Part shown: piece after piece, positions 13,805 through 40,865 of the stretch
Numbering within the stretch: position 1 is the stretch's first letter
Layout: each line of letters opens with the position of its first letter
Origin: Azolla caroliniana
Taxonomy: Eukaryota > Plantae > Polypodiophyta
NCBI GenBank assembly: GCA_043228905.1
Contig: JBHGNT010000001.1
Location: 2,976,001 to 3,040,000, forward strand
Direction: 5' to 3'
Length of the DNA stretch: 64,000 nt
The notes under the pieces: generated by a model
Database searches by the model: none
What the model was told of the DNA's origin: nothing
Seen by the model: only the letters and a program-made list of their open reading frames with translations
Translations under genes and position numbers: made by a program

Positions 13805-14252
13805 TATTTATCGATGGAGTAAGCTTCTCAATGTTGTTGCAGGATTCGGATCGGCGTATACCCTTTTCATGGCAAATCAGGCGGAGATGGTTGTCAGACA
13901 CCTCCGAGCCTCACACTCACTTAACAACTAATGGATGATTAAGCACAATATCTCTCTCAAGCTCGCTCTCATAGACAATAGGGTAATGAATGTAGACAAC
14001 AAGAGTAATGAATATGTTTATTAACCCTCTTTGCTAAGAGGTCTAGCACCAACAAGGAAGAGAGATTAGTGTTCTCTAACTAAACACTTCACTAATCTCT
14101 CTTAAGCTTAAAGGTTACAAGGAGGAGGAGAGGATGCTCTAGCTCTTAATCACTTAGGAGATCTTTACAAATGGGAGAACCCCCACAAAGCCACTATTAT
14201 GTGGCTTATATAGCTTTCACGTTTAGGGTATGGGCATTTCACACTTGGACGT

Positions 14253-14940
14253 TGTCGTAAAGAAAACCGGCCATAGGCGGAATCAAAGAAAAAGGCGCAT
14301 GAACCGGCTCCTACACGGGTGGACGGGAGGATTGATATATTGTACATAATTCGTAATTAGGGCGATTGGTGTAAATACTAGGTAGCACATTTATTAGGGG
14401 ATTTTGTGCGTATCTCTGTCGACAGGGGCAGGGAATAAAGCAGTTTGGCTAAGGAAAAGGGGGCACCCCCTTTGGGGGAACTATTTAAGGAGGGAGAGGA
14501 GGAAGGAATAGGTATCGCGCGCTAGGGAGGACGAAGTGCTGCTGCAGATCTGAGTGCCGAGCTCTCTCTTCTCCTCCGGCCGTCGGTCTCTGTAGGTCAG
14601 AAGCTCGCTGCCTCTGCTTCGTGGACAGCCCGTGCACTTCCAGTAGAGGCTCTCCCCCTTTTTGTTTGTTTCTAGGAGTCGAGCGAGTGTTGTCTGTGTG
14701 TGTGAATAGGATCCCCGTGTCGGGTCCATCGCCGCCTTGCCGGTTGTAACTGTCAGAGTCGTATTCTCTTGTTATTGTAAACTCTTGTTATTGAAATCGA
14801 GTGTTGCGTTCTATATCTCTCCTTCTCGCTTCGCGTATCTACAAATCTCTCTCGCTCTCTGTCTGTCTGTCTCTCTTGCTCCTCGGTTCAAGCCCTCGTG
14901 GTCCCGCCCCTTCTACACGCGCGCGCGTAACTTCGCGACA
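14253..14940 (+). repeat. 5' LTR of B
   Basis: Matches 25279-25437 plus 37156-37696, a few percent diverged. Confidence 0.93.
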
Positions 14941-14944
14941 TCTT

Positions 14945-14962
14945 TGGTGAACCCGACGTGAA
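14945..14962 (+). promoter_or_regulatory. Primer binding site complementary to the tRNA-Trp 3' end
   Basis: TGGTGAACCCGACGTGAA, 4 nt after the LTR end. Confidence 0.85.
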
Positions 14963-14985
14963 CGGGGCGGCAAAGGAGTCGAAAG

Positions 14986-17119
14986 ATGAGGGGATCGGAG
15001 CTAGCAGAGGCAATGGCGGTGGCCGTCGACCGATTGGTGAGCGCTCGTGAGGGGACGGGTACCCTCGATAGAACCATTGAATCGATCGTCAGCTCTATAG
15101 GCCGTTTCGGAGGGAAAGACGCCAAGAGTTATTTGGAGGTTTACCGGGCCGAAATGATCATGAGGGATATCCCAGTGGACAGGCGGTTGTCCGGATTCCC
15201 TCAGGTGGTGACGTCGGGCATCCACGCGGAGGTGCTCGAGGTGTTGGCCGGATGCCAGACTTGCGAGGAGTTCGAGTTGCAGCTCCTCAAGAAGTACGGG
15301 TTTGACGACTCGCTTCGGCTGTCGAGGTGGGACTTCATGGCGTGGGTGGAAAGCCCCGGAAAGGGGAAGAACACATCGGTGCTCCTCCAGGAGTTCGAAA
15401 AACGGTTTGCGCGGCTGTCGACGTTGGACCGGACGGTGCTCGAAACAAGTCGAGTACTACTATTTGTCAAGTCGGTGGACGCACTCGACAGGGAAAAGGT
15501 GGGTCCCCTATTGGAAACGGACGAGGGGCTCACGGCAGACTGGGCCGTGGTAAAACGGGTCTGCAGCCGTTTCGACAAACGGCGCGATTGGAGCGACGGA
15601 AGCTCGTTGGGGTCAGGGCCGGTCCCGGGGAGGAGGCTCGAGGAGCCGGTATCGGTGCCGGCTGGTAGGAAGGAAGAGACCCGAATCTGGCCAAACTCGG
15701 GGTCGGCATCGAACGACGTGGTCAGAGGCCCATCCGGAGGAGCGGCTCTGGAGGAGCGGCTCTGGAGGAGCTGACATAGATGGTGCACGACCTGCAGATC
15801 ACACAGGCCCGGAGAGACAGCGGCGAACAACCTCGCGACCAGAGGCTCCCGGCTGGGTAGCGGTGCATGTGGTGTGACGCGATCGGTCACATTCGGAAGG
15901 ATTGCGCGGATTTCGTTGACGCGCTCAGGACCAACGTGGTGTTCCTCTGGAACGGGCGTATGCACGCGAGCGAGACCCGGAGAGACCTAGAACTGAATAC
16001 GGGGTGTGACGGAATGAAGAGGTTGATGGAAGAGGCCACGACACGGCACGTCGAAGCCGTTAACTACTCAGTGTCGGCGGGAATTCCGGTCGGGGGTGAT
16101 GAGACCCGGAAGGCGAAGGACTCCAGATTCTGGCCGCTAGTGCTAGAAGGCCTCTCCGGAGTTTGGATGAAGAAGGAAGAGGCGGACCGCACGGAACAAC
16201 GGATCCAGGAGGTCACCGGTTGGGACGATCCGGTCGAAGAGAAAACGGGCTTCGTAGAAGCCGCTTGTCAGAACTACGAGGTTCTGGTGGAGGACAAACG
16301 GGCAGGAGAGGCCGGAGGGGTCGGCCCCCCGAGAAGGTATGAGACCCGGTTCGGACCGAAACCGACCGGTGCCGGCAACCCAGGCGCGTCGGACGGAAAG
16401 AAGCAGGCGGGGTTTCGGTTGACCATCGAGATCAAAAGGACCACAGACCTGCGAAAGGTCCTGGAGGAACGTATCCTCGACAACAAAGTGGAGTTGTCAT
16501 TGCGGGAGGTGCTGGGAATCGCCAAGAGGGAGTTTCACGACTCTATCGTAGACTTGGTGAAGTGGAAGAGGCTCTCGACGAAGCCGGAACCGGAGAAGCC
16601 GGTGGAGGTGCGGACCACGCACCTGGAAGACGAAGCCCTAGAAGACGAGTTGGCGGGAAGCCACTACAGGAAGCTGCATTGGGCCAGGGCAAAAACGGAA
16701 ACCCCTGTACGGATCGGCAACATTCTGGAACCGGTGGTGGCGTTGGTAACCATGGATCCGAAATCAACCTGATGTCCATGGATTTCTACAAGAAGGGTAA
16801 ATGGCCGATCAACACCAAGCACGGTTGGAAGATACAGGCAGCGACGCGCGCCACGGAAGAACTGCATGGGGCTTGTCCAAACGTACGGGTGAAAATCGGC
16901 GATGTCGAGATCGACCAGCACTTCTTCGTGCAAGAGATGTCCTCGCATCTCGTTATACTAGGAGAGCCATATATCACAGCGGCACGGATGGAGAACGGTT
17001 TAGCCTATGCAAGAGTCAAGAGCCAGGATGGGCGTCACTCGGTCCAATTCCTAACAGTGCGACCAAACCACGAGCGTAACCACGAGGCCCTCGGCGGCGA
17101 AACCCGAGGGGATTTTTAG
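14986..17119 (+). pseudogene. Gag-protease ORF of B
   Basis: Gag N-terminus (SIGRFGGKDAKSYLEVY), CMWCDAIGHIRKDC knuckle, linker VLEERILDNKVELSLREVLG, protease VALVNHGSEINLMS...VILGEPY; broken by a 14-bp duplication near 15736-15763 and a frameshift near 16745. Confidence 0.85.
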
Positions 17120-17175
17120 AGAGGGCTATCAAGGCGTGGGGCCGCGATAGTCCGGACACCCGGAAAGAACCCCAC
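17110..17175 (+). promoter_or_regulatory. Putative -1 frameshift signal, gag-pro to RT-RH-IN of B
   Basis: G GAT TTT followed by TAG; 6-nt spacer; stem GGGCTATC/GATAGTCC; loop GTGGGG complementary to CCCCAC at 17170-17175; the -1 frame is open to 17574. Confidence 0.75.
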
Positions 17176-17931
17176 AAATGTACAGTACCGAAGAAGACAT
17201 GTACCATAGGTAGGGAATTTTGGTTCTCCTACAACGAAGGTTGTACTATAACCAGCGTCAGCGGCCGGGAGAGGAAGCGAGCGGAGGAGCGGCTCAGGGG
17301 ATGCGGAGTCCTCTTCCCCGACGAAGACATCAACGGCGTCGTGGAGGCGGTCTCTTTTGACGACACCTTGGGCGAATTGCGAAAGGTGATCAGTGAAGAC
17401 CTTAGAGAAGACTGGACCGTTCTGGTAGGGTCGATGGGAATGTACGAAGTCATCGCGGACTTTGGGGAAAGGATTGAGTCGGATCGGACGGCCCGTGTGG
17501 ATACAAAGTACAAGACTATGGACCGAAAGGTGAGGCCAATCGCGGCACCCTTGCCGGAGGGCAACGAGGAGTAGATAAAAGGGGTTGTGTCGGACCCAAG
17601 TTTACGGAATCTGGTTGGCATAGGATAGGGCACTGGTTCACCGACATAACGCTACTCGAGCTCAAGGTCGGTGGGGGCGGCTTCCTACTACCGGCGAAGG
17701 AGGACCGATTTCGGAGAATGCTCGGGAGGCACGGCAAGGCTTTAGCATTCTCACCGGAGGAGATCGGGTGCATAGACCCGACAATTGTCGAACCGATGGT
17801 GATCTTCACGGTACCGCATGTACTGTGGAATCTCAAGCCGATTCCGGTGCCGAGAGCTCATATCCCGAAGTTGATGGAGCTCCTGGAGCAAAAGGTGGAG
17901 ATGGGCATCCTCGAACCGTTGAGTGCCCCGT
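17116..17931 (+). pseudogene. Pol of B, part 1 (linker and RT start)
   Basis: TKYKTMDRKVRPIAAPLP, ALAFSPEEIGCIDPTIVEPMVIFTVPHVLW, GILEPLSAP; continues as YSNRW at 22528. Confidence 0.85.
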
Positions 17932-19923
17932 TGTCGAGGTGTTCCTCTCGTGCATGTAGAAGGGGCGGGACCGCGTGGATCTTGGACTAGGGAGTAGAGG
18001 AGAAAGGATAGGACATGATATGGAGGCTTAGCTCAAGAGGAGAAGAGGAAAGAATAAGACCACGACATCGAAGGAGATATCGGCGGAGGCAAGATGCTCA
18101 ACAAGTTATGTTAAAACAACGAATGGTTACAACAGTGGTGGCCGCCATGGCCGCACCAAAATGACTATCCGAAAACCCTAAAGGGGAACCCAAGAAGAAA
18201 ACCCTAACCGAAACCCTAACCCTAAACGAAAAGGGGAAGAGGGAGAACCCCTCGACTAAGTGGTATACCTTACTCGCACAAAATAGGCAACCCCTTCATA
18301 AGTGACCCCTCCCCTCCTTTTATAGCCCAAGGAGGGAGGGACCTTACAATGTGGGACAAAAATGTCCCCTCTCTTTCTATACACCATATCCTAGCATACA
18401 TGTGCACATGTTGCACACCACCGACTTGCCCCTTCCACCCCGGTTTCCGCCTATGGACGAAAATCTTCACGACATCCACCCACACCAAACCGCACATCCA
18501 CCGGTATGTGCCAAGAAAGGAAAAGGGTGAGAGATTTCGTCCACGGTGATCAACCGGGTCTTTCGCCTTACCGGCACCCAACCTTCTTGCCGGTCCCTTG
18601 CTGGCGCCGATCCGTCTTGCCGGCCCCGACCCGCCGACTCCATCCGATCCACCACGTCCACCGCGTTTCCCCGAACCGTCGGCTCCATCCGATCCGCCAT
18701 ATCCGACGTTCACGCCTTCTTCTTCGACCGACCCTCCCGAACGCCATTGCCGATCTGGTCACTCTGTTTGCTCGACGGATTCCGCCCCTCGCGTACCGCT
18801 TGTGTTCTATCTCCGGCTCGATCCTCTCTTCGTCTCGAACACCTCGTGCCAATTCCCTCCGTTCCGCGCTCACCTTCTGTAGGCTCTTCCCGTGTGCCCT
18901 TGTTGTCTCCCGAACATGCGGTCGTTCTTCGGTCCCTCGGTGACCTCATTACGCGCTCCTCGCTTCTCCCTCGCTCGCCGTGCTCTCTCGCCGTAGAGCG
19001 TACCGTCATCCCGGCCACCATGTCAGTGTCCTTCGCGACTCCCGTTACCGCTTTCCCAGACACAATCCTTCGTTCACGCCGATCACGCCCGTCTCGCTTT
19101 GTTGATCTTGGCGTCTCGTCGCGCCGCCCGTCGTCCCGCACTTGCCTCTTGAAGGGTTTCCCCGACCGTCATCGTCGGTCACTCGTTGCGGCTCTTCCGG
19201 GTGCATGTTTGCTTCTTGGCCCTTCGCCGACCGTAGTGCACGCTCCGTTCTACGCCGTAATGCATTTGCGTTACATACTTCCCTCGTTGTAGTCCCGACC
19301 TCCGTGTCGGCCTCTTCGTACTTTCTTGCCGTAGCCCCTTTCGACTCCGGCTTGCCGTCTTGGCCGTGCTCATCCGTCTTCATGCACCGGGTACCCGTTC
19401 TAGTGGCCTCGTCAGTTCCGGTCTCCGACTCCTCACCGCCACCCGTCGTGTCTCCGGTCTTATGTTGATCCGCAACCGCCGAAGTCTCAAGGATAGATGT
19501 GGAGGGCTCCTCTCGCTCTCGGTCTTCTGCCAAGTCGTAATCACCGTGCCTGGTTAGCTTCCTTCTCGCGCTCATCGGCTCCCACCGGGTGTTGTGGCCC
19601 GTTCGCCTCGACCTCCAACTGTGCCAACTTTGCCTTCGCCCGGATCGGTCTCGGCCGATCGAGTTCCGGTTAGGTCGGCTCCCTTCTGTAATCGTAACCG
19701 GCCGGTAGATGTTTGTCCGAACAAATCCGACCTTGCCTGCTCTTCTTCGGTTCGGGCCCGGTTGACCAGACCCTGCTCCAATGTTCTTCCGCATCGTCTT
19801 CCGGTCATGTCGGATTATCGACCGGTCCATCTTCCGGTCGGGTCGGTTCCCGACTCTCTCCTCTTTGCCGCTCCCGACCTCTCCGTCGATCCTCTCGTAT
19901 ATGCCCGTTCCGAGCCTCGCATC

Positions 19924-20511
19924 TGTTGGTAGACAGGTCCCTCCGGATGGGAAGGGAGAAGAAACGGTATGAACCGAATGAGGAGAACCCGACTTCGGAG
20001 AGTCGGATGGTGTAGGCCCGGTATGAACCGGATGAGGAGTACCCGACTACGGAGAGTCGGATGGAGCACATCGAGGCTACATTTGTAAATAGCCGAAAAG
20101 TCATATTAGTATAAATATGACTTAGGGCAAACTTTTAGTAGCTGTTGTCATTCTTGTTGTTATTCTTTCTTGTTGGTGCAAGAAGAAATTAGAGCGCGTA
20201 ACTGTACAGAGAGAGAGAGAGAGAGACGAGGTCGTTGCCTCTGTTGTAACCGCCGCCTGTGGCGAAGATCTGAGAACACGAGGTCGTTGCCTTAGTGATC
20301 TCACTATTGTATATTTCTGCATAGTGACAGTTTGCAGCTCGTGGGCTGCCGTGGTTTTTCCCCTATTTTGGGGTTTTCCACGTATACCTCCTGTGTACCA
20401 TTTCTCCTCTTCTTTTTCTTTTGTGTCGCGTTTCATTACCTGTTTTCTGTGTATGAAAAGAATCTCGGTTGTGGCCGAGCGTCGGACATTAGGAACGCCG
20501 AGTTTCCAACA
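19924..20511 (+). mobile_element. Solo Copia LTR (relative of copies 1 and 2)
   Basis: TGTTG...CAACA with a perfect 5-bp TSD GCATC (19919-19923, 20512-20516); shares AAATATGACTTAGGGCAAAC and CTCGGTTGTGGCCGAG with the Copia LTRs. Confidence 0.92.
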
Positions 20512-20996
20512 GCATCCTCATCTTCGTACGTGTTCGCTCCGGGCCACACCTGCTCACGGCTACCGCCCTTCTCTCCGGTCTTATGTTGGCATTCGAGCGC
20601 AACCGCCGTAGTCTCCGGTCTCGGTGTCGAGAGGTCTTGCCTCCGTCCGCTATGACCTTCCTCGTCGTCGTTTCGATTGTCCGCTTTGCCGCCGCCACCT
20701 TCCGTCTCTCCGGTCTCACGTGGGCTCTCGGGGCCGACTGCCGAAGTCTCTTGAATAGGTGTGGGAAAAGTCCCGATACCGTTACTCGCCGATGCCATGT
20801 TCGTAGCCACCTTCGTTCGGACGCCGTGGTCCGTGGCTATCTCTTCCTCGTTCTCTTCGTCGCCGTGGTAGGCCGCCTTGCCGCCACCACCGCCCGTCGC
20901 TCTAGGTCTCACGCCGGCACTCGGGCCGGCCGCCGGAGCCTCTAAGACCGGTGTGGGTAAGGACTCGGCACCGCCACTCGTTGTGTCAGTAGCCGC

Positions 20997-21962
20997 TTAC
21001 GTCCGGTTGTCGTTGTCCACGGCTACCCCATCTCCGACTCCGCAAACCTCGATTACGCTTGCCACCATCTCTCCCATGCCGTCGTCTCGGTTGCCCGCCT
21101 TGCCGCTGCCACCGTCCGTCACTCTAGGTCTCACACCGGCTCTCGGGCCGGATGCCGGAGTCTCTAGGACCGGTGTGTGTAAGGTCGCGGCACCGCCGCT
21201 TGTCCGCTCCTCACTCAATGTTTCGGGCCGCCATGTCCCGAATCCGTAGTTACCGGCCTCCATGGCCGTCCCTTCACCGCAAGGCAAGAGGGTCGCTTGC
21301 TCCGCACCCTCTCCTATCTCGCCGTCGTACGCTCTCCCGGCCTCTGTATAGACCCCGCCTTCTACGTCTAGGGAGGCTTCTTCCTCCGTAACCTCCGATC
21401 GCCTCCGGCCCGACTCCATAATAAGCCCTTCTTCGGCTCCGATTTTCGCCTTCACAAGCTCGCATGCCTCTCGTATTAGCGCTTCTAGGTCGAGCTCCTC
21501 CGAACCGTTTTGCGTTGAGCTCTCTTCCGGCGGCAGTGCGTACTCACTCGCCGCTCTCTCTTCTCTGCCGCTCGCGGGCCACGTTGTTGCCGGCCGCTCC
21601 CCAACGGGTTGCCGGCATACCCACTCCGGTTTCACGTATCCGCACGCTTCCAATAGGGCTACCTCCAAGGACACCCACGACTTGTGAGCTTCTCGTAGCT
21701 CCTTGACCTCCTTGTGCACCGATGCGGCCGCCACTCGAGGAAAATACTCTAGCCGCATCTCCTCGTCCACGCCCCCTTTCGCCATCTCGGCCTCGTACGC
21801 CTCCAAGAACCTCGGGACATCGTCCTCGTTGAATCGGCCGACTCGATCGACCACCCTTTCGACGGCTTGTTGAGCCGCATCTCGCTTTGCCATCTTCCGT
21901 CCGGCTTCCATCACGATTTTTGCCATCATCTCCTCGAAGTCCAAGTCTTCTTCCATCTCCAT
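20997..21962 (-). CDS. Gag N-terminal-derived protein of C with an acidic, repeat-containing extension (321 aa)
   Basis: ATG about 15 nt after the PBS; VERVVDRVGRFNEDDVPRFLEAYEAEM aligns with B Gag IESIVSSIGRFGGKDAKSYLEVYRAEM. Confidence 0.7.
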   Translation of the reverse strand: MEMEEDLDFEEMMAKIVMEAGRKMAKRDAAQQAVERVVDRVGRFNEDDVPRFLEAYEAEMAKGGVDEEMRLEYFPRVAAASVHKEVKELREAHKSWVSLEVALLEACGYVKPEWVCRQPVGERPATTWPASGREERAASEYALPPEESSTQNGSEELDLEALIREACELVKAKIGAEEGLIMESGRRRSEVTEEEASLDVEGGVYTEAGRAYDGEIGEGAEQATLLPCGEGTAMEAGNYGFGTWRPETLSEERTSGGAATLHTPVLETPASGPRAGVRPRVTDGGSGKAGNRDDGMGEMVASVIEVCGVGDGVAVDNDNRT

Positions 21963-22524
21963 GCTCCCTTGCCGCCCTTCACGTCGGGTTCACCAAATAT
22001 GTCGAGGTGTTCCTCGCGTGCGTGTAGAAGGGGCGGGACCGCGGGGATCTTGGACTAGGGAGTAGAGGAGAAAGGATAGGACATGATATGGAGGCTTAGC
22101 TCAAGAGGAGAAGAGGAAAGAATAAGACCACGACATCGAAGGAGAGATCGGCGGAGGCAAGATGCTCAACAAGTTATGTTAAAACAACGAATGGTTACAA
22201 CAGTGGTGGCCGCCATGGCCGCACCAAAATGACTATCCGAAAACCCTAAAGGGGAACCCAAGAAGAAAACCCTAAACGAAAAGGGGAAGAGGGAGAACCC
22301 CTCGACTAAGTGGTATACCTTACTCACACAAAATAGGCAACCCCTTCATAAGTGACCCCTCCCCTCCTTTTATAGCCCAAGGAGGGAGGGACCTTACAAT
22401 GTGGGACAAAAATGTCCCCTCTCTTTCTATACACCATATCCTAGCATACATGTGCGCATGTTGCACACCACCGACTTGCCCCTTCCACCCCGGTTTCCGC
22501 CTATGGACGAAAATCTTCACGACA

Positions 22525-25140: not shown

Positions 25141-25278
25141 GAGCCGGCGAGCGAGAGTAACGACGACGATCAATTCGGGTCCAGTGGAGAATCAGAGAAC
25201 GACGAGTGAAGCCGGTTTTCTTCGGTGTCTACCCGTCTCTAGCGCATGCCGATGGATGCGCGGTTTGGTGGGGGTGGA

Positions 25279-25437
25279 TGTCGTAAAGAAAACCGGCCAT
25301 AGGCGGAATCAAAGAAAAAGGCGCATGAATCGGCTCTTACACGGGTGGACGCGAGGATTGATATATTGTACATAATTCGTAATTAGGGCGACTGGTGTAA
25401 ATACTAGGTAGCACATTTATTAGGGGATTTTGTGCGT
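25279..25437 (+). repeat. 3' LTR of B, left piece
   Basis: Matches 14253-14411; interrupted by E. Confidence 0.92.
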
Positions 25438-26131: not shown

Positions 26132-26163
<32 letters not shown>

Positions 26164-26433
26164 GAGGTCGACGCCTCTGTGTAATACCGCCGCCTGTGGC
26201 GAGGACAGCGAGCTCAAGGTCGTCGCCTTGCAGCTCGCCATTGTACATTCCCTGCGGATAGTGATAGTTGGAGTCTTGCACTCCCGTGGTTTTTCCCGTC
26301 TAGGGTTTTCCACGCTAAACCCTGTGCATTCGAGTCTCTCTCTGTGTTTTGATTTACTTCTGCATTGATTCGTGTTTCCTCGGTTGTGGCCGAGAGGTGA
26401 AAGTTTTTTGGAAGCGTCCCATTCCTAACAATC

Positions 26434-26445
26434 TGGTATCAGAGC
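26434..26445 (+). promoter_or_regulatory. Primer binding site, initiator tRNA-Met
   Basis: TGGTATCAGAGC, 3 nt after the LTR end. Confidence 0.95.
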
Positions 26446-26461
26446 GATTGCAGTGCAGAAA

Positions 26462-29400
26462 ATGGAAGGCGGCAGCAGCGGGCAGCCGGGGATGATGGTG
26501 CTGAATGCGCAGAACTACGCCGACTGGAAGATAAAGATGGAGGATCTGCTCATTGTTCGGGACCTGTATGAACCGATCGACAAGTCGGAAATACCCAAGG
26601 GGGTACTTGAGACGGAATGGAGGCTTCTGAACCGGAAAGCCGTTGCAACCATTCGGCAATACGTCGACGTGAGCGTTCTACAACATGTGGCGAACGACAC
26701 CAACGCATATGAGATGTGGCAGAAGCTGTGGGGCCTCAACGAGAGGAAGAATGCGTTGAACCGGACCTCCCTGATGAGGAAGATAGTGAACCTCAAGTAC
26801 CGGGACGGCGAGAGTATGGTGGAACACGTAAGCACGTTCATGGGATTCGTGAACCAGCTTGCGGCGATCAAGTTCCCGTTGGAGGATGCAATGCAAGCCA
26901 TCATGCTAATGTGTACATTGCCGGAAAGCTGGGAGAACTTGGTGGTGACTCTCAGCACCTCCTGCACCGAAGATAACTTGTCCTTACAAACGGTAAAGAC
27001 AAGCATTTTGAACGAAGAAGCGCGTCGGAGAGATAAAGAACCGGCCTCCGATCCGAAGATGCTGCTTACCGAATCGGATCGGGGAAGACAACGGAACCGG
27101 AGTCCGCAAAGACGGGAGAAGTCGGGGACCCGGTCGCAGTCAAGAGGAAGGCCCACATGCTTCCACTGTGGGAAGTCGGGGCACTTCCGAAAGAATTGTC
27201 AGCATTACCGAAAAGACAACGGAGCCGACGACACCGATTCGAAGAAGTCTTCGGAACGGAACGGTGCTTACCGGGGAGCCACGGACCGGAATGGTTCGGA
27301 TCGGCGAGGGCAGGACCGGAAAGGAACGACGGCACTCACGGCAAGTGAAGAGGAGATCATGCTCATCACCGAAGAAGGTGAACTAAACATTGTCGGCGAT
27401 GAGACTACCTGGGTGGTCGATTCCGGAGCGTCGTTCCACCTGACCCCGGAAAGAAGATACTTCTCATCCTATACAGCCGGTGAGCATGGCTGCGTTCGGA
27501 TGGGAAATGAAGGTACGTGCCGGATTGCCGGCATAGGAGACGTGTGGTTGACAACCTCGACCGGATGCAAAATGTTGCTGAAGGATGTCCGACACGTTCC
27601 GGAGGTTCGATTGAACCTGATTTCGGCCGGGAGGCTAGACGATGAAGGCTACACAGGTAGCATCCGGAACTGCGTAATGAAGTTCAACAAGGGGAGCCTG
27701 ATAGTGGCTCGGGCCCGGAAAGTCAACACACTGTACCTTATGAATGCCTGGTTGTGTCCGGAGGAGTTGAACGTGGCAGTCGATACTGCCGGTGAGCTCT
27801 GGCATAAGAGACTGTGCCACATGAGTGAGAAGGGGATGAAGAGGCTTGCAGAAGACAACCTTATTCCAGTGAAGCATGTGCACCTGGAGAAGTGCACCGA
27901 TTGCCTGGCCGGTAAGCAGAACCGAACCTCCTTCCACTCAAGGCCACCGACGAGACGTAGCGCACCATTGGAGTTGGTGCACACTGACGTGTGTCAAGTA
28001 GAAACGAAGTCACATGGCGGAGCCCAGTACTTCGTGACATTCATTGATGACCACAGCCGGAAGCTGTGGACGGCACCGTTGAAGAAAAAGGACCAAGTGT
28101 TGTGCGTTTTCAAAGAACTCCACGCGAGAGTGGAAAGGGAATCCGGCAAGAAGCTGAAAGCGATACGAGCGGATAACGGAGGGGAATATCGGGGGCAGTT
28201 CGAGGAGTACTGTCGCTCAAAGGGAATCCGGCTCGAGTTTACTGTGTCGAAGACGCCGGAACTGAACGGGCTGGCCGAGAGGATGAACCGGACCATAATG
28301 GAGAGGGTCCGGAGTATGCTGGCGCATGCGAAATTACCCAAGGGGTTTTGGGCTGAGGCAATGTCGACGGCGACATACGTGATAAACATATCACCCTCAG
28401 TACCTTTGGACGGAGACACGCCGCAGAGAGTGTGGACCGGCAGGGAAGTATCCTACCGGCATCTGAAGGTGTTCGGGTGTCTCGCATATGTGCATGTGGC
28501 AAAGGACCGGAGAGGAAAGCTAGATCCAAAGACCCGGCCATGCATATTCCTCGGTTACGGCAATGACGAGTTCGGCTACCGAGTATGGGACCCGGTCGAC
28601 GAAAAGATATTCCGGAGTCGTGATATCATCTTCATGGAGGACAAGACACTCGCCGACTGGGAGTCGGAGAAGAAGATGAAGAGCTCCAAGTCGACCGGTG
28701 AGGATCAACTCTACGAGGAGCAGTCCCGACCGGCAAGGGACCGGTTAGCACTCGAGGATCCGGCCGAAGACGGTGAAGAAACAGAACCGGCTGAGGAAGA
28801 TGAAACTGATACCGGAACCGGCCCCGATCCCGAAATGGATTCGGATGAAGAGGAAACGGAGGAGCCGGTTACCGAAGCTCCGGAACGGAGATATCCTCTA
28901 AGAGAGAGAAGGGCCCCCCGGAGATTTCCGGAACCAGAGCACGTGCTGCTAACCGACGAGGGGAAGCCGGAGAGTTTTGAAGAAGCAAAGCTTGACACCC
29001 ATAGCCGCAGGTGGTTAAGTGCCATGCAGGAGGAGATGGATTCCTTGCATGAGAACCACACATATGAACTTGTGGAGTTGCCGAAAGGAAAGCGGGCACT
29101 TCGAAACAAGTGGGTGTTCAAGCTGAAACCGGGAGATGCCGGAAACCCCCCGAGATACAAAGCCAGGATCGTGGTGAAGGGGTTCCAGCAGAGGAAGGGC
29201 GTCGACTTCGACGAGATATTTGCCCCGGTAGTGAAGATGACCTCCATCCGGACGGTGCTGAGCATAGCGGCAAGCATGGACCTCGAGGTAGAACAGATGG
29301 ACGTGAAGACGGCATTCCTTCACGGTGACCTCGAAGAAGAGATCTACATGCAGCAACCGGAAGGATTCGAGAAGAAAGGAAAGGAGCACCTGGTATGCCG

Positions 29401-30535
29401 GTTGAAGAAGAGCCTTTACGGACTGAAGCAGGCTCCCCGGCAATGGTACCAGAAGTTCGACTCTTTCATGACCGACGAAGGGTACCACAAAACGCAATCC
29501 GATCACTGCGTGTTTGTGAAGAAGTTCGAAGGAGGAGACTTTCTAATACTCCTCCTGTACGTGGACGACATGTTGATCGTCGGACGGGACCAGGTCAAGA
29601 TACGGATGCTGAAGAAAGCGCTTCACCGAACCTTCTCAATGAAGGACCTGGGTCCAGCGAGGCAAATACTAGGGATGCACATCATCCGGGACCGGAAGAA
29701 GAAGCAGTTGTGGCTGTCACAGGAGAAGTACGTGACAAAGGTGCTTCACCGGTTCAACATGTCGGAAGCAAGACCGGTCGGGTCAACCCTCCCGGCAAAC
29801 TGCAGGTTGTCCAGCAAGCAAAGCCCCAAGACAAAGGTTGAGAAGGAGGACATGATGAAAGTACCATATGCCTCTGCCGTCGGAAGCTTGATGTACGCAA
29901 TGGTGTGTACAAGACCGGACATAGGATATGCAGTCGGAGTGGTGAGCCGGTACATGAGCAATCCCGGCAAAGAGCACTGGAACGCGGCCAAGTGGATACT
30001 CCGATACCTGAAGGGCACGGCAAACGTGTGCCTCCGATTCGGCTCCGGTAAGCCCGAACTCGACGGCTTTACCGATTCGGATATGTCGGCTGATGCAGAT
30101 ACCAGCCGGTCCACATCAGGGTATGTGATGACGTATGCAGGGGGAGCTGTTTCGTGGCAGTCGAGGCTGCAGAAGACGGTTGCGTTGTCGACCACGGAGG
30201 CGGAGTACATGGCGGCTGTTGAAGCCGGCAAGGAAATAATATGGATGAAGGACTTCATTAGAGAGCTCGGTATCCGGCAGGAGGAGTACCGACTCTACTG
30301 CGACAGTCAAAGTGCCATCCACCTTGCGAAGAACGCGGCCTATCACTCACGGACGAAGCACATCCAGCGAAGATATCACTGGATCCGGGAAAGGATAGAA
30401 GACCAGGAGTTTGTGCTGACGAAGATCCACACGGACGAGAATGGGTCAGATATGTTGACCAAAGTGCTCACACCCGACAAGCTGGAAGCGTGCCGGAAGA
30501 GGGTCGGACTGGAAAGACATCCCATGCCGAAGTGA
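26462..30535 (+). CDS. Copia Gag-Pol polyprotein (1357 aa from the first ATG)
   Basis: NYADWKIKM, CFHCGKSGHFRKNC, WVVDSGAS, integrase HHCC and D-D-E, YVDD and RNase H; no stops; the ORF-track start at 26453 is a GTG. Confidence 0.96.
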   Translation: MEGGSSGQPGMMVLNAQNYADWKIKMEDLLIVRDLYEPIDKSEIPKGVLETEWRLLNRKAVATIRQYVDVSVLQHVANDTNAYEMWQKLWGLNERKNALNRTSLMRKIVNLKYRDGESMVEHVSTFMGFVNQLAAIKFPLEDAMQAIMLMCTLPESWENLVVTLSTSCTEDNLSLQTVKTSILNEEARRRDKEPASDPKMLLTESDRGRQRNRSPQRREKSGTRSQSRGRPTCFHCGKSGHFRKNCQHYRKDNGADDTDSKKSSERNGAYRGATDRNGSDRRGQDRKGTTALTASEEEIMLITEEGELNIVGDETTWVVDSGASFHLTPERRYFSSYTAGEHGCVRMGNEGTCRIAGIGDVWLTTSTGCKMLLKDVRHVPEVRLNLISAGRLDDEGYTGSIRNCVMKFNKGSLIVARARKVNTLYLMNAWLCPEELNVAVDTAGELWHKRLCHMSEKGMKRLAEDNLIPVKHVHLEKCTDCLAGKQNRTSFHSRPPTRRSAPLELVHTDVCQVETKSHGGAQYFVTFIDDHSRKLWTAPLKKKDQVLCVFKELHARVERESGKKLKAIRADNGGEYRGQFEEYCRSKGIRLEFTVSKTPELNGLAERMNRTIMERVRSMLAHAKLPKGFWAEAMSTATYVINISPSVPLDGDTPQRVWTGREVSYRHLKVFGCLAYVHVAKDRRGKLDPKTRPCIFLGYGNDEFGYRVWDPVDEKIFRSRDIIFMEDKTLADWESEKKMKSSKSTGEDQLYEEQSRPARDRLALEDPAEDGEETEPAEEDETDTGTGPDPEMDSDEEETEEPVTEAPERRYPLRERRAPRRFPEPEHVLLTDEGKPESFEEAKLDTHSRRWLSAMQEEMDSLHENHTYELVELPKGKRALRNKWVFKLKPGDAGNPPRYKARIVVKGFQQRKGVDFDEIFAPVVKMTSIRTVLSIAASMDLEVEQMDVKTAFLHGDLEEEIYMQQPEGFEKKGKEHLVCRLKKSLYGLKQAPRQWYQKFDSFMTDEGYHKTQSDHCVFVKKFEGGDFLILLLYVDDMLIVGRDQVKIRMLKKALHRTFSMKDLGPARQILGMHIIRDRKKKQLWLSQEKYVTKVLHRFNMSEARPVGSTLPANCRLSSKQSPKTKVEKEDMMKVPYASAVGSLMYAMVCTRPDIGYAVGVVSRYMSNPGKEHWNAAKWILRYLKGTANVCLRFGSGKPELDGFTDSDMSADADTSRSTSGYVMTYAGGAVSWQSRLQKTVALSTTEAEYMAAVEAGKEIIWMKDFIRELGIRQEEYRLYCDSQSAIHLAKNAAYHSRTKHIQRRYHWIRERIEDQEFVLTKIHTDENGSDMLTKVLTPDKLEACRKRVGLERHPMPK

Positions 30536-30545
30536 AGGGGGAGTT

Positions 30546-31206
30546 TGTTGGGATTACGGTCCCTCCGGATGGGATGGTCAGATGTCCGGGAATCGGGAAT
30601 GAAGACCCGAATGATGAAGACCCGGTTTTCGGATCCGGATGATGAAGACCCCGGCTACGGAGCCGGATGACGAAGACCCGGTTTCGGATCCGGATGATGA
30701 AGACCCCGGCTACGGAGCCGGATGACGAATGTACCCGGAGAGAGATCCGGATGCGGGGACATATTTGTGAATATGTTTGCCAAGGGCCCTCGAGGCTATA
30801 TTTGTAAATAGCCCGAAATTCATGTGTATAAATATGACTTAGGGCAAACAGTTTGTGTGTTGTTGCTCATTTTTCTGTTTTCCACTTAGAGGGAGCGAAG
30901 TGAGAGCAGCCGAGAGAGAGAGAGAGAGAGAGAAAGGAAGAGGTCGACGCCTCTGTGTAATACCACCGCCTGTGGCGAGGATAGCGAGCTCAAGGTCGTC
31001 GCCTTGCAGCTCGCCATTGTACATTCCCTGTGGATAGTGATAGTTGGAGTCTTGCACTCCCGTGGTTTTTCCCGTCTAGGGTTTTCCACGCTAAACCCTG
31101 TGCATTCGAGTCTCTCTCTGTGTTTTGATTTACTTCTGCATTGATTCGTGTTTCCTCGGTTGTGGCCGAGAGGTGAAAGTTTTTTGGAAGCGTCCCATTC
31201 CTAACA
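30546..31206 (+). repeat. 3' LTR of Copia copy 2 with a U3 array of 27-28 bp units
   Basis: TGTTG...TAACA; GA(T/C)GAAGACCC units at about 30600-30750. Confidence 0.95.
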
Positions 31207-34200
31207 ATGTTGTACATAGGAGATCCTAGGCAGGCAGATTCGGTAGGTAGGAAGTAAAGGGGAAACGGCTCCTTCCTTGCCTATAAAAGAAGGGAGACGA
31301 GGAGGGGCGAAGGGATCGCGGAGAGTCGAGGACGAAGTGCTGTCGGTTTGTGTGCGAAGGCTTCTCTCTCTCTCTGGTTCGCAAACTCCATAGCTTCCTT
31401 CTGTGCCGGTTTCGGGAGGCTCGCGCTGCTCTAAAGAATGCCCGAGTGCTTCCGGTAGCACCTCCAACCTACTCCTTCCTTTCTGTGCGTTTACGAACAG
31501 GTATCAGCATCTATTCGCCGGCCTGTTCGGTTGTAACCGACCTCGTGTTTTGTTGTTTGTCTTTGTTAATACATACATACATTCGTGTCTCTCTGTGTCG
31601 CTATCCCACTCGCGTCTTTGTGTCGAAGGGCCGTGTCCCTGTGAATCTACTCTCGCACGTAGTGGGTCTCTTCTCCTTTCTCTCTTGCTCTTAGGTACAG
31701 GACCCCCGAGGTCCCGCCTCATTCCACGCATCCGCGAGGAATACCTCAACAGCGCGTGCGTGGAGAAAGGCGGGACCACGGGGGTCTTGGACTAGGGAGT
31801 GACGGAGCGTAGGAAGTCGTACTTCACCGTTTCCGAGGCATCCTAGGAGCACACCGGAAGCAACCGAAGGGAGAGAGAGAAAGAGAGGGAGCGCGTGCTT
31901 GACACCGACTCGCACACACACACACACACACAGGCCGACCCGACTCACGCCCTTATGTACAGGAAACGCAAGAAAGAGGAAGCACCCGACACCAACAGAG
32001 ACACGAATATACACAGACAGACGCAAATGTATATATATAAAAGGAAGAATACATTCCCGGCTTCGAGCCGGACCAAGGTAGGTTACAGTAGTCGTCGGCT
32101 GCCAAGACGTCAGTCGGGGAGCTCACGGGCTTGTTGCGCCGAGCGGGGTCTTGCGCAAGAGACGAGCTGAAGCAAACCCTAAGCGAATACGAAGGGGGGA
32201 GAAGAAGAAGAAGAAGAAGAGTAACTAACCCTAAATCTAACGGTATACCCTCTAACGCAAAATGGGCAACCCTTTCACAAAGGCCGCTCCCTTCCTTTTA
32301 TAGAACAAGGAGAGGGATGTGTTACAATGTGGGATAAATCCCGACTTACATGGGATCGTCTGTCCCGACTTGACTACTCTTCGGCGCCATAAAGGCGCCC
32401 TCGTTATTCACACTAAATGTACAAGGGTGAGCACACACGCTACACCCCGCCGATGTAGCCAATGTTTCCCGGTTTCCGCCTCTGGCCGAAATTCTTCACG
32501 ACATCCGCCCCCACCTAACCGCACGTCCACAGTACGTGCCAAATCCGGTGAAGGGTCAGAGATTTCGGCCGTGAGAAATCGGTCTTCCGTGATCCGCATC
32601 CCGGCTTGCTACCGGTTTGCTCCGTCGGCTTCAATTCTTCCTTCGTGCTTACCTCCCCGTAGGCTCGTTCGACCCGTCGATCTCCGTAGTACGCGTACTT
32701 CCGTTGGCCCTTGTTCGGCCGTATGAACACCCGCTCCCCGCCATATGCCCGATGTCCTTCGCTGGAGGAAAGCCTGTAGTGGCCCGCTTGGCCTCCGTTG
32801 ATCATTCGTGTTGTCCTGATTGCCGCCCCATGCTGCTTCGCGTTGCCTTCGTCCTCTCGCCGCCACCTTCCTTCTCCATGCTCTTTACATCACCGCGTCG
32901 GCTCGAACCGCCATGGTCTCCGGAACGGTGTGGAGGATGCTTCATGGCCTTCTACGCGCTACCTCCGAACCGCGCAACCTATCTCCGCGCTCGCCTTTCC
33001 GCTCTGGCACCTCCGTGTGCCACATACCCTCGTCCGTTGTTTGGCACTACCTGTGCCGTACTCCGGTTCATTGCACGCCTTGTCGGCCCCTTTCCCGGCT
33101 AGATCGTGCATCGCCGCTCACCCACATACCAGTGTCCTCCGCATCCGAGGAACACCCCGTAGTAGCCCGCTTGGCCCTTCCCGTCTTCGTGTTGTTGCAA
33201 CAGGTCCCGAGTCTTCCGCTTGCCGTCGTCCCCTCGCCCCACCAGCTTGTCACCCTGGCTTGCCGTGTCAATCTTCGCTACTTCGACGGAGCTACCGAGA
33301 TCTACGAAGCGAGTGTGGAGGATCCTCCTCCGGCCTCTTTTGCCATCCCATGACTCCGACCCTGTGTAGTCCACTAGGCACTTGTCACCTCGTTCCTGGC
33401 ACCTCCCTTGTGTCGTCTTCCGCTTCCTTTCTTCGGCACCGCCCATGCCGAACACTGTCCCGTAGTCACGCTTCGATCCGGCCCGCGATGGCCACTTGCG
33501 AGACTCTTGTTCCGTCCCAGGTGTGCCTTTCCGGGCCAACACACCTCCTCGTGTTTGCCCCTACTGGCTCCTTTCGAAACTTCGTGTCGTCGGGTCTCGT
33601 TCCCTGCCGCCATCGTCCTTCTCCCTAGGTCTCACGTTACCACGTTGGCCGAACTACCGGAGTCTCCGGATCGGTGTGAGGGTCCCATAGGACCAGACTC
33701 CGTTTCTATGCTTGCCGAGATTCGAGTGTCTTTTGTTTGAGTCCCTCCCGGACTCTCCTCGTGTCTTCCGCATAGTCGGGTCCCGTTTCCCGCCGCCACC
33801 AACCTTCTCTCTCGGTCTCATGTTGCCACGTTGGCCGAACTGCCGGAGTCTCTAGTTAAGTGTGGGGATCCCGTAGGACTGAACTTCCATTCACCCACTA
33901 AACTTGCCAGAAGGTCTGATTCGGTTCGTAGCCGCCCTGCCGGCCTGATACCTTCTTTCTCTGCTTCCGTCGTCCGGTCACGTTCACCTGCCGCCACCGT
34001 CCCTTCCTATAGGACTCACGCCAGCTCTCGGGCTGACCGCCAGATCGGTGTGAGGATCTCCGTAGACCGCCCATCCGTGGCCCTTTTCCTTCATCACCTC
34101 GCCGCCACCGTCTGTATCTTGGTCTTACGTCGGCCGCGTTGCCGACTGCCGGAGTCTCTAGAACCGGTGTGAAGGATCCTCCTTGGGCCTCCGATTTGTC

Positions 34201-35649
34201 TTCCTGACCCTGTCCCGGGTCGTCCTTTTCCGCATGCCGAGAGGGCGTTTTGTTCCGCACCCTCTCCCGTGGTACCGACGTACCGTCTCCTCAGCCTCTC
34301 CGTAGGCCTGCTCTCTTCCTCCCTCCCGGAATGGTCATCCGGGAGTCCGCTCCGCCCGGTTCTCGTCCAGGTCTGTTCGTCCTTCTCTGTATTGCCGGGT
34401 CCCGTTCTCCTGTCGCCATCGTCCTCTCCTATAGGACTCACGCCGGCACTCGGGTCGGCAGCCGGATCATTGTAAGGATCTCCATAGGACCGGCTTTCAT
34501 TCTCCTGTACATCTCCCGAACTCGTCGTCGCTCTCCTTTCTGCGTTCCCGCCTCCATCCTCCATCTCTTTCGGTCTCACGTTGCCACGTCGGCCGAACTG
34601 CCGAAGTCTCTGGATAGGACGTGGGGTAACCGGTTTTGTAACTTCTTTCGGCGACTCGTCCAGACCACTGCCCCTTTTAGTGGTGTCGGTGGATAGCATC
34701 CGCTCTGTGATCGATCAAGCCCCGCCGGAGCTTGATTCTCCAATGTCCGGAGTTTCGGCTCCAATGCCGATCTTGCCAGACTCTTTCCGAACCTTTGATC
34801 ACCCTCCTTCCAACTCTCGACCTTCGCCCGGTCGGTCTTTCTCCCCATGTAAAAGAGGGCGGCTCGTCCCACACCCTCTCCCGTATCGGCACCTTTATGC
34901 CGAATCCGGCCCCAATTGAACAATCCACGACCGGATCACGCTCCACCCGTATCGGAGCGTCGTGTGGTTCTGTCCCCGGTCGGGTCGTTCCTTGGTCTCC
35001 TCGTCGACCCTTTCGTTGGCCATCTCCCATCCATCTTCGCTGGCATCGTGCCAGGACTCCTCGGTACTACCATCCATCTCCTCGGTCTTACATGGGCATA
35101 CCGGCCCGAATGCCGAGTTCTCCGGAATCGGGTCCGTGGGCTTTCGTCCGCTCCTTCCCCGTATCGTATCGTCGGTGATTCTTGGTCTTTCGCCGCCGCC
35201 TTCCTCCGCTTGGGACTCACGTGGGCACTCGGGCCCGACTGTCATCGTCTCGGGAGCAAGTGTGGGAAGACACAAAGAATCGCCCGTCCGTTTTACGCCC
35301 TTGTCCGTAGCCACCGACTCTTCATGGTGGCGGTCGTCTTCTTACCGATCGCGCAAGCCCCGCCTGGGCTTGCTTCTCCGATTTCCGGGGTTTCGGGCTG
35401 ACACGCCCGAAATCGTTGGTCCCAACTACCCAGTTCCGCGATCTGTATCTCGGCCTCGTCCTTGGTCGTTCTATCTCCGCAAGTCAAGAGGGCGTTTTGT
35501 TCCGCACCCTCTCCCGTCGTACCGTCGTACCGATCTTCCGTCGTCGCGTGGGGCAAGTCCGTCTCCTCGGTCTCGGCTTGCGGCCTCGATCTTCCCTCTT
35601 CCTCGAGCATCGCCTCGAGAGCTGTGTACGCCTCCGCAATCCTGGCCCC

Positions 35650-36351
35650 AACGCCGACCCTTGCCAACTCCCTTTGTCGTTCGACCTCTTCCCGCAGTGA
35701 TGGCACGCCGTTGCGCGCCTTCCTCTTAGCCTTCTCGGCTCACTCGTCGTCTAGCCGTTGGCACACCCTTCCGACCTTCGACCAGTCCTCTGTAAGCCCA
35801 TTCCCTACGTCATCGTCTTCGAGCTCCATCCCGATGGCTTCCCGTTCCGCTCGGTCGATCGACCTAACAAACAATAGGACCTTGTCCGCCCCCACCAATC
35901 CTTGTTCCCGCTCTGGGAACCGAGCAAGCTGTCGCTCAAACTCTCGGAACGCCTTGGTCGCGGCCCGGTGGGTCTTTACCGATGCTACCCACTAGTCGAA
36001 GTCGTGTCGTCCCCCGCTCTTCCGCCGTCCTCCATATGCCTTCAAGAGTGCCTCTTCGAAGGCCTCCCACGAACTATGAGCCTCACGGAGCTCCTTTACT
36101 TCCGCATGCATCCGGACAACTACGACCCGACAGAAGAACTCCAGCCTCAACGCCTCGTCTACGCCGTGCTCCTCCATTTCCGCGTTGTAGGCTTCCAAGT
36201 AAGATGGGACTTTGTCCCCGTTGAAACGGTCGACTCTTTCGACCACTCGCTCAACCGCTTGTTGCGCTGCTTCTCGCCTCATCACCACTCGTGCCGACTC
36301 CAACACCACTTCGACCACCATCTCCGCGAGGTCGTCGTCTTCCGACTCCAT
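35650..36351 (-). pseudogene. Gag fragment of E
   Basis: MESEDDDLAEMVV...VERVDRFNGDKVPSYLEAYNAEM, homologous to C and B Gag; stop at 35992; similarity continues (VLLFVRSIDR). Confidence 0.8.
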
Positions 36352-36543
36352 CCTCCCTTGCCGCCTTTCATGTCGGGTTGTTACGTGCGTGCGTGGAGAA
36401 AGGCGGGATCACGGGGGTCTTGGACTAGGGAGTGACGGAGCGTAGGAAGTCGTACTTCACCGTTTCCAGGGCATCCCAGGAGCACACCGGAAGCAACCGA
36501 AGGGAGAGAGAGAAAGAGAGGGAGCGCGCGCTTGACACCGACT

Positions 36544-36578
<35 letters not shown>

Positions 36579-37155
36579 GGCCGACCCGACTCACGCCCTT
36601 ATGTACAGGAAACGCAGGAAAGGGGAAGCACCCGACACCAACAGAGACACGAATATACACAGACAGACGCAAATGTATATATATAAAAGGAAGAATACAT
36701 TCCCGGCTTCGAATCGGACCAAGGTAGGTTACAGTAGTCGTCGGCTGCCAAGCCGCCGGTCGGGGAGCTCACGGGCTTGTCGCGTCGAGCGGGGTCTTGC
36801 GCAGGAGACGAGCTGAAGCAAACCCTAAGCGAATACGAAGGGGGGAGAAGAAGAAGAAGAAGAAGAAGAAGAGTAACTAACCCTAAATCTAACGGTATAC
36901 CCTCTAACGCAAAATAGGCAACCCTTTCACAAAGGCCGCTCCCTTCCTTTTATAGAACAAGGAGAGGGATGCGTTACAATGTGGGATAAATCTCGACTTA
37001 CATGGGATCGTCTATCCCGACTTGACTACTCTTCGGCGCCATAAAGGCGCCCTCGTTATTCACACTAAATGTACAAGGGTGAGCACACACGTTGCACCCC
37101 GCCGATGTAGCCAATGTTTCCCGGTTTCCGCCTCTGGCCGAAATTCTTCACGACA

Positions 37156-37696
37156 GCATATCTCTATCGACAGGGATAGGGAATAATGCAGTTTGGCTAA
37201 GGAAAAGGGAGCACCCCCTTTGGGGGAACTATTTAAGGAGGGAGAGGAGGAAGGAACAGGTATCGCGCGCTAGGGAGGACGAAGTGCTGCTGCAGATCTG
37301 AGTGTCGACCTCTCTCTTCTCCTCCGGTCGTCGGTCTCTGTAGGTCGGAAGCTCGTTGCCTCTGCTTCGTGGTCAGCCCGTGCGCTTCCAGCAGAAGCTC
37401 TGGACCCCCTTTTTGTTTGTTTCTGGGAGTCGAGCGAGTGCTGTCTGTGTGTGTGAATAGGATCCCCGTGTCGGGTCCATCGCCGCCTTGCCGGTTGTAA
37501 CCGTCAGAGTCGTATTCTCTTGTTATTGTAAACTCTTGTTATTGAAATCGAGTGTTGCGTTCTATATCTCTCATTCTCGCTTCACGTATCTACAAATCTC
37601 TCTCGCTCTCTGTCTCTCTGTCTCTCTCTCTTGCTCCTCGGTTCAAGACCCCCGTGGTCCTGCCCCTTCGACACGCGCGCGCGTAACTTCGCGACA
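37156..37696 (+). repeat. 3' LTR of B, right piece
   Basis: Matches 14408-14940 and ends CGACA. Confidence 0.92.
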
Positions 37697-37821
37697 ACGT
37701 CTCTTTGCTTCTTTTCCTCTTGTCGTTTCCTCTTCGTACTACGTCCTTGTTGATGCACTCTTATTTGTGATTGGTTGTGTTATTATCCCGGCGCTTAACA
37801 CCTTCCAACACCACTAAAGAG

Positions 37822-40800: not shown

Positions 40801-40865
40801 AACCAGGTCCTCAATCTAAGACGACTCGTAATACTCGTCATCTTAAGGGGGGGATAGTGTCATGA
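37822..40865 (+). pseudogene. Pol of chromovirus A (RT, RNase H, integrase, chromodomain)
   Basis: [87 protein letters not shown]; many stops. Confidence 0.93.

What the first reader, a model, noticed from the sequence alone, without database searches (positions are those of the whole stretch)
14249..37700. All four family insertions made 4-bp TSDs centred on CpG
Seen: ACGT/ACGT (B), CCGT/CCGT (C), GCGT/GCAT (E) and ACAC/GCGC (D, consistent with GCGC after CpG decay). The consensus is NCGY, whereas the solo Copia LTR has a normal 5-bp GCATC. Inference: the integrase has a 4-bp stagger and prefers CpG. In an AT-rich, CpG-poor genome this would steer insertions into young GC-rich elements, a sequence-encoded route to self-nesting without a chromodomain. 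The sample is only four, three hosts are CpG-rich anyway, and two TSDs are reconstructed.
Basis: partly seen in the sequence, partly recalled or inferred. Interest (0 to 1): 0.72.

Follow-up and report, generated by a model that had tools for sequence, protein, structure and literature searches.

The report
Retrotransposon family that inserts at CpG
A plant jumping-gene family nearly always inserts at a CG pair and duplicates four bases there, a habit already reported for its likely moss relatives (Phygy), and this likely explains part, but not all, of why copies pile up inside one another.

Summary
The four insertions (B, C, D, E) belong to a Ty3/Gypsy family with a tRNA-Trp primer site and no chromodomain.

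Genome-wide, 1,889 of 2,154 host-facing LTR starts have CG at the centre of the target. TG (78), CA (83) and TA (3) fit later CpG decay. Background CpG is 2.6%, and a Copia control shows 0 of 59. Of 42 paired ends, 27 are perfect 4-bp duplications and none is a perfect 5-bp one. The motif is the symmetric VCGB, not NCGY. Families about 60% identical in pol share it.

Neumann et al. 2019 already list '4 bp (100%) (NCGN)' and tRNA-Trp for Phygy; membership was not tested by phylogeny.

Self-nesting is a bias, not a rule: 14 of 47 insertions, against 3.8% expected by length, 14.7% by CpG sites and 7 of 59 for Copia. CG targeting combined with a regional bias shared with Copia predicts about 20%. 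Whether the integrase reads methylated CpG is open.

An earlier scan note describes another Phygy-like nest in this genome; a word search found none on this TSD.

The parts
14253..37696 (+). Element B: Phygy-like Ty3/Gypsy LTR retrotransposon (gag, RT-RH-INT, interrupted by stops and insertions); 5' LTR 14253-14940, 3' LTR split 25279-25437 + 37156-37696
14249..14252 (+). Left TSD of B, ACGT
37697..37700 (+). Right TSD of B, ACGT
14945..14962 (+). Primer binding site of B, complementary to the 3' end of host tRNA-Trp(CCA)
   Evidence: 6 of 6 fetched genomic matches are tRNA-Trp
17932..22524 (-). Element C: non-autonomous family member (gag remnant only) inserted in the RT region of B; LTRs 17932-18474 and 22000-22524
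17928..17931 (+). Left TSD of C, CCGT (ACGG in the element's own orientation)
22525..22528 (+). Right TSD of C, CCGT
25438..37155 (-). Element E: non-autonomous family member inserted in the 3' LTR of B; LTRs 25438-25455 + 31752-32503 and about 36371-37155
25434..25437 (+). Left TSD of E, GCGT (same as the empty site at 14408-14411)
37156..37159 (+). Right TSD of E, GCAT (one CpG-to-CpA change)
25456..31751 (+). Element D: solo LTR of the family inserted 18 bp inside E's LTR end, itself interrupted by Copia F
25452..25455 (+). Left TSD of D, ACAC (two CpG-type G-to-A changes from GCGC)
31752..31755 (+). Right TSD of D, GCGC
19924..20511 (+). Solo Copia LTR inside C with 5-bp TSD GCATC (internal control)
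25816..31207 (+). Copia element F (1368-aa gag-pol ORF 26429-30535) inside D, flanked by a 276-bp duplication instead of a short TSD
13794..37800 (-). Host of B: solo LTR of another family with a 5-bp TSD CCTTC (13789-13793 / 37801-37805), lying in a decayed Ty3/Gypsy pol; strand inferred from the LTR ends

Best explanation
This is a Phygy-like Ty3/Gypsy retrotransposon family whose insertions make 4-bp duplications centred almost always on CG (motif VCGB), likely because its integrase itself recognises the central CG, and this likely enriches insertions in CpG-rich repeats, including its own copies, on top of a regional bias that a Copia family shares. Shown: TSD length, the motif, the decay pattern, the absence of a chromodomain match, conservation of the rule in distant families, and the nesting enrichment. 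Inferred: that the integrase (not a host factor) reads the bases; that the non-autonomous elements C and E borrowed the family's integrase; that TG/CA centres are later 5mC deamination. The likely mechanism is the known 4-bp intasome geometry (target bent at a central pyrimidine-purine step, T disfavoured at position 0 and A at +3) plus added base-specific contacts that exclude TA, TG and CA. The near-invariant D-R-G-E-L at the start of core helix alpha2 is an untested candidate for those contacts.
For: Genome-wide centre counts CG 1,889, CA 83, TG 78, TA 3, i.e. 92% of pyrimidine-purine centres are CG where abundance predicts 11%. 27 of 42 paired ends are perfect at 4 bp, 0 of 42 at 3, 5 or 6 bp; 42 of 42 have CG on at least one side. 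Copia control: 0 of 59 CG at the same offset; 5-bp TSDs in 3 of 3 cases where both ends were found. Distant families in the same genome: 8 of 8 host-facing starts CG (two are near-duplicates), and 11 CG, 3 CA, 3 TG, 1 TA of 18. Pfam at E<=1 finds RT, RNase H and integrase but no chromodomain in 3 of 3 pol proteins. Nesting 14 of 47 vs Copia 7 of 59; CpG-reweighted Copia predicts 20% nesting and flank CpG 0.056 vs 0.054 observed. Literature: Phygy 4 bp NCGN; retroviral 4-bp geometry; ZAM integrase binds CGCGCg directly (abstract).
Against: No biochemical test of the integrase; a host CpG-binding tether would give the same footprints. Observed nesting (30%, 95% CI 17-45%) is above the plain CpG-weighted expectation (14.7%, p=0.007) and fits only when the Copia-like regional bias is added (20%, p=0.15), so CG targeting alone does not explain it. 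Samples are small (47 and 59 sites), come from one chromosome arm, and the two families may differ in age. 101 of 2,154 non-GG starts were left unclassified. 6 of 42 pairs match at only 1-2 of 4 bases (decay, mis-pairing across unfetched DNA, or aberrant ends).
Confidence: 0.8

Rival explanations
1. The integrase (or a partner) reads methylated CpG, so the motif is a direct route into silenced repeat chromatin without a chromodomain.
For: Insertion flanks are CpG-rich: 77% have >4% CpG against 54% for VCGB-weighted random sites. TSD centres decay symmetrically to TG and CA, as methylated CpG does. No chromodomain match.
Against: The flank excess is reproduced by CpG-reweighting the Copia sites (0.056 vs 0.054), so nothing extra is needed. 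Decay can follow methylation that spread after insertion. No methylation data were available.
Confidence: 0.15
2. Nesting is mostly regional: chromatin preference or purifying selection confines all LTR elements to repeat islands, and the CG rule only picks the exact base inside them.
For: Copia, with no CG preference, is in family sequence at 7 of 59 (12%) against 3.8% expected (p=0.007). 33 of 47 family insertions are in other DNA. In P. patens, Phygy-into-Tcn1 was the commonest repeated nested pair and Phygy is not among the families named for auto-insertion (PMC6911290).
Against: The family still nests 2.5 times more often than Copia (p=0.028) and has CpG-richer flanks (p=0.004), as CG weighting predicts.
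Confidence: 0.3
3. The preference is only for bendable pyrimidine-purine steps, as in 4-bp retroviruses, and CG is over-represented by circumstance.
For: 4-bp-TSD retroviruses favour a central YR step and avoid T at position 0 and A at +3 (PMC4422553), which matches the V and B positions here.
Against: TA, TG and CA are each about 7% of dinucleotides against 2.6% for CG, yet TA is 3 of 2,053 YR centres.
Confidence: 0.02
4. Chance from a sample of four in CpG-rich hosts.
For: Three hosts in the window have 6-8% CpG.
Against: 88% genome-wide against 2.6% background and 8.4% in family DNA; Copia 0 of 59.
Confidence: 0.005

Closest known systems
Phygy clade, non-chromovirus Ty3/Gypsy (Neumann et al. 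2019, PMC6317226; passages and supplementary table 5 read)
   Same: 4-bp TSD with NCGN; tRNA-Trp primer; no chromodomain or archaeal RNase H; coding region fills the interior.
   Different: The motif is refined here to VCGB and shown to be near-obligate.
TatI (same table)
   Same: 4-bp TSD and tRNA-Trp primer.
   Different: TatI carries an archaeal RNase H in 100% of copies; no such domain matched here. No NCGN preference is listed for TatI.
ZAM of Drosophila (PMC2527525, abstract read; 4-bp TSD in PMC3276498, passages)
   Same: Gypsy-type integrase with a CG-containing target (CGCGCg) and 4-bp TSD; the integrase binds the site directly.
   Different: Insect element with a longer fixed consensus; here only the central CG is fixed. 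Relatedness was not tested.
Prototype foamy virus and other 4-bp retroviral intasomes (PMC4422553, passages; structures 3oym/3l2q)
   Same: 4-bp stagger, central YR step, T/A avoided at TSD edges; among the closest solved integrases by sequence (E about 1e-19, with Ty3).
   Different: Their YR preference is weak (about 63% over random) and covers all YR steps. The residue aligned to Ala188 is small and neutral there, but Glu here, in D-R-G-E-L.

Membership tests
Ty3/Gypsy LTR retrotransposon | LTRs with TG...CA ends, PBS, pol order RT-RH-INT | tested here: met
Phygy | 4-bp TSD with NCGN motif | tested here: met
Phygy | PBS for tRNA-Trp | tested here: met
Phygy | No chromodomain, no archaeal RNase H | tested here: met
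   Pfam at E<=1 on 3 pol proteins
Phygy | Polyprotein ORFs span nearly the whole interior, no extra ORF | tested here: met
   ORF scan of 19 full-length copies, (gag and pol ORFs run from the 5' LTR end to near the 3' LTR; the shorter ORFs listed overlap them or the LTRs)
Phygy | Length 7,656-9,968 bp (descriptive; the paper calls size a weak classifier) | tested here: not met
   6,614-7,423 bp
Phygy | RT/RH/INT phylogeny groups with the P. patens Phygy reference set | not testable with these tools
   No named Phygy protein among the best 120 of 383 hits listed; named relatives are Riccia (55-70% identity) and Adiantum proteins. Filed as Phygy-like, not as Phygy.
TatI | Archaeal RNase H domain | tested here: not met
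Selgy | tRNA-Ala PBS, about 5 kb | tested here: not met
Chromoviruses (Tcn1, Galadriel, Tekay and others) | Chromodomain at the integrase C-terminus | tested here: not met

The most novel reading that the evidence does not exclude
A whole lineage of seedless-plant Ty3/Gypsy elements has an integrase that is a CpG-specific, methylation-sensing reader, using the charged D-R-G-E-L helix start. It finds silenced repeat islands, and its own CpG-rich copies, straight from the DNA: a chromodomain-free targeting route.
Probability: 0.15. Interest if true: 0.75.

Novelty: new member of a known kind. Interest (0 to 1): 0.3.

Why it matters
The core trait is in print for Phygy, so the finding itself is not new. 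What this genome adds is scale and sharpness: about 2,000 insertion sites show that the CG is close to obligate, that bendability alone cannot explain it, that the rule holds in families about 60% identical in pol, and that it accounts for a measurable share of nesting. Plant LTR integrases are otherwise described as nearly sequence-blind (PMC6317226), so this is a clean system for asking how an integrase gains base specificity and whether it senses CpG methylation. The TSD pairs are also a built-in clock for CpG decay.

Tried and rejected
TSD lengths of 3, 5 and 6 bp: no perfect match in 42 pairs. NCGY: rejected, G is common at position 4. YR bendability alone: rejected by the TA count. Local composition: rejected by tiles and the Copia control. 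Self-nesting as a rule: rejected (33 of 47 elsewhere).

A first nesting count (27 of 99; 21 of 72 on C1) was dropped because it mixed ends found next to other family copies and could count one event twice. It was replaced by 47 host-facing 5' starts found by one exact pattern. Of the 73 planned regions outside the window, the last 13 (C1 beyond about 10.69 Mb) were not fetched.

Comparing TSD decay with LTR-pair divergence (CpG 3.2% vs other 1.25%, including one outlier pair) could not date methylation relative to insertion. Copia LTR ends were found in only 4 of the loci scanned, so Copia TSD length rests on 3 cases plus the window. Metagenome contigs are collapsed and gave only a handful of junctions. 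Host identity: organism labels are coded and no RNA holder was listed. No tRNA gene in the window. The Atlas search gave only generic integrase clusters. No structure was predicted.

Literature searches found NCGN for LTR elements only in PMC6317226 (of 7 papers listed for that string, two were opened) and no paper testing CpG-driven self-nesting or a methylation-reading integrase. The library lacks most subscription journals. The per-element table of PMC6317226 did not turn up among the 5 supplementary files searched, so Phygy's edge-base bias could not be compared.
Full report
Setting. The window is C1:2,976,001-3,040,000 of a 523-Mb eukaryote assembly. It holds a GC- and CpG-rich repeat island in AT-rich DNA. 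The primer site matches host tRNA-Trp(CCA) genes (6 of 6 fetched), and the named protein relatives are from a liverwort and a fern, so the host is a plant. 'Fern' comes from earlier scan notes and was not tested.

Anatomy. Self-alignment and the sequence give this nest. A solo LTR of another family (13794-37800, 5-bp TSD CCTTC) holds B (+, 14253-37696). B's RT region holds C (-, 17932-22524), which holds a solo Copia LTR (19924-20511, GCATC). B's 3' LTR holds E (-, 25438-37155). E's LTR holds the solo LTR D (+, 25456-31751), which holds Copia F. B, C, D and E share TGTCG...CGACA-type ends (D ends CAACA). C and E keep only a gag remnant, so they are inferred to have used the family's integrase in trans.

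Observation check. The flanks are ACGT/ACGT, CCGT/CCGT, GCGT/GCAT and ACAC/GCGC as reported. The two imperfect pairs are not guesswork: E's empty site is GCGT in B's other LTR, and D's is GCGC in 31 of 41 homologous LTR ends. Contigs from 3 of 3 public runs skip C exactly, with 4 ambiguous letters at the joint.

Genome-wide motif. An exact 17-mer LTR start occurs 3,800 times. 1,646 have GG at the TSD-centre offset, which is the internal side of 3' LTRs. Of the other 2,154, 1,889 have CG, 83 CA, 78 TG and 3 TA; 101 were not classified. TG and CA are equal, as deamination of methyl-CpG on either strand predicts, and the TA count matches double decay (3.4 expected). In 40 random 10-kb tiles from the first 11.8 Mb of C1, GC is 39.9%, CpG 2.6% (o/e 0.65), and TA, TG and CA about 7% each. 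A Copia family from the same chromosome has CG at that offset in 0 of 59 sites.

TSD length and shape. Among 42 paired ends (3 from the window), 27 match 4 of 4, 9 match 3 of 4, and 6 match 1-2 of 4; none is perfect at 3, 5 or 6 bp. All 42 have CG on at least one side. Over 99 events outside the window the motif is A>C>G>>T, C, G, T>G>C>>A, i.e. symmetric VCGB, with weak preferences beyond it.

Depth of the rule. Relatives at 59-77% pol identity keep TGTCG-type LTR ends and, where the contig reaches it, mostly the tRNA-Trp site. Two such families in this genome give 8 of 8 CG (two near-duplicates) and 11 CG, 3 CA, 3 TG, 1 TA of 18 host-facing starts, after setting aside internal-side starts.

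Self-nesting. The family is 4.3% of tile bases (95% bootstrap 0.9-8.7%) but 13.9% of CpGs. With one classifier, 3.8% of uniform positions, 14.7% of VCGB sites, 7 of 59 Copia insertions and 14 of 47 family insertions lie in family sequence (family vs Copia p=0.028). Weighting the Copia sites by flank CpG density predicts 20% nesting (observed 30%, p=0.15) and flank CpG 0.056 (observed 0.054). So two factors multiply: a regional bias of about three-fold shared with Copia (chromatin or selection), and the CG rule. Most insertions (33 of 47) are still in other DNA. Limits: small samples, one chromosome arm, an incomplete repeat library and unmatched ages.

Mechanism. Pol has RT, RNase H and a zinc-finger plus core integrase, with no chromodomain or archaeal RNase H match; gag matches DUF4100. 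The closest solved integrases are foamy virus and Ty3. For 4-bp retroviruses the target is bent at a central YR step, and T and A are avoided at the TSD edges (PMC4422553, passages). That explains V and B but not the exclusion of TA, so base-specific reading is inferred. ZAM shows that a Gypsy-type integrase can bind a CG-rich site directly (PMC2527525, abstract). The stretch aligned to foamy D185-Q-G-A188 is D-R-G-E-L (numbering converted by me from the chain; D185 recalled). D, G, E and L are present in 18 of 18 aligned proteins and R in 16 of 18, whereas retroviruses have small neutral residues at the Ala188 position. This is a candidate only.

Comparison with what is known. Neumann et al. 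2019 state that Phygy elements prefer NCGN and tabulate '4 bp (100%) (NCGN)', tRNA-Trp 81%, and no extra domain. Jedlicka et al. 2019 report GC-rich centres in 4-bp TSDs, and Phygy-into-Tcn1 as the commonest repeated nested pair in P. patens; Phygy is not in their list of auto-inserting families (passages and section 6). Phygy-class elements are also annotated in a liverwort (PMC12885004, passages). This family meets the TSD, primer and domain criteria, falls short of the published length range, and could not be placed on a tree with Phygy references, so it is filed as Phygy-like.

Verdict. A real, strong and well-replicated feature, already described for the closest clade. New here are the near-obligate character, the VCGB refinement, the breadth across families and a first estimate of its share in nesting. 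Interest 0.3; it would be 0.75 if the integrase proves to sense CpG methylation (probability about 0.15).

Noticed in passing
window 25534-31483: Copia F has no short TSD. It is flanked by a 276-bp duplication of its host LTR (25534-25809 = 31208-31483, 96%), its 5' LTR lacks the first ~50 bp, and a 6-base filler sits at that junction; this looks like an aberrant one-ended integration finished by repair.
   Followed up: partly
window 25245-25278; L201-L256 after pol: The tract before the 3' LTR is G-rich but interrupted by pyrimidines and preceded by a conserved, probably hairpin-forming stretch in this family and in relatives down to about 60% identity. Earlier scan notes discuss unusual plus-strand priming in other families of this genome.
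   Followed up: no
window 36361-36388: Element E has a small deletion across its PBS/5' LTR junction, apparently between two similar short words, which removed the LTR's first bases and part of the primer site.
   Followed up: partly
L064 (G000:C1:7869657-7876958): A family copy with identical LTRs whose flanks do not form a 4-bp TSD (CGGC/ACGA) but share a longer repeated stretch; possible aberrant integration or a tandem host.
   Followed up: no
P0001 residues 916-920 (L050): The integrase motif D-R-G-E-L replaces the small-residue helix start of retroviral integrases and is near-invariant in 18 aligned proteins.
   Followed up: partly
L050:2125-4302 (gag): Gag matches DUF4100, and the top Atlas cluster for the integrase is most commonly Basidiomycota (phylum known for only 3 members); a lead for a fungal link of this lineage.
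   Followed up: no
   Followed up: no
G000 C8:17.80-17.82 Mb, C16:4.99-5.11 Mb, C5:10.11 Mb: Tandem clusters of tRNA-Trp-like 3' ends (63 pattern matches genome-wide, many about 0.9-1.2 kb apart). Only 6 loci were checked with ARAGORN.
   Followed up: no
window 40548-41607 and 44412-45188: Near-perfect tandem repeats (3 x 354 bp, 4 x 193 bp), the first at the 3' end of the host Ty3/Gypsy pol.
   Followed up: no
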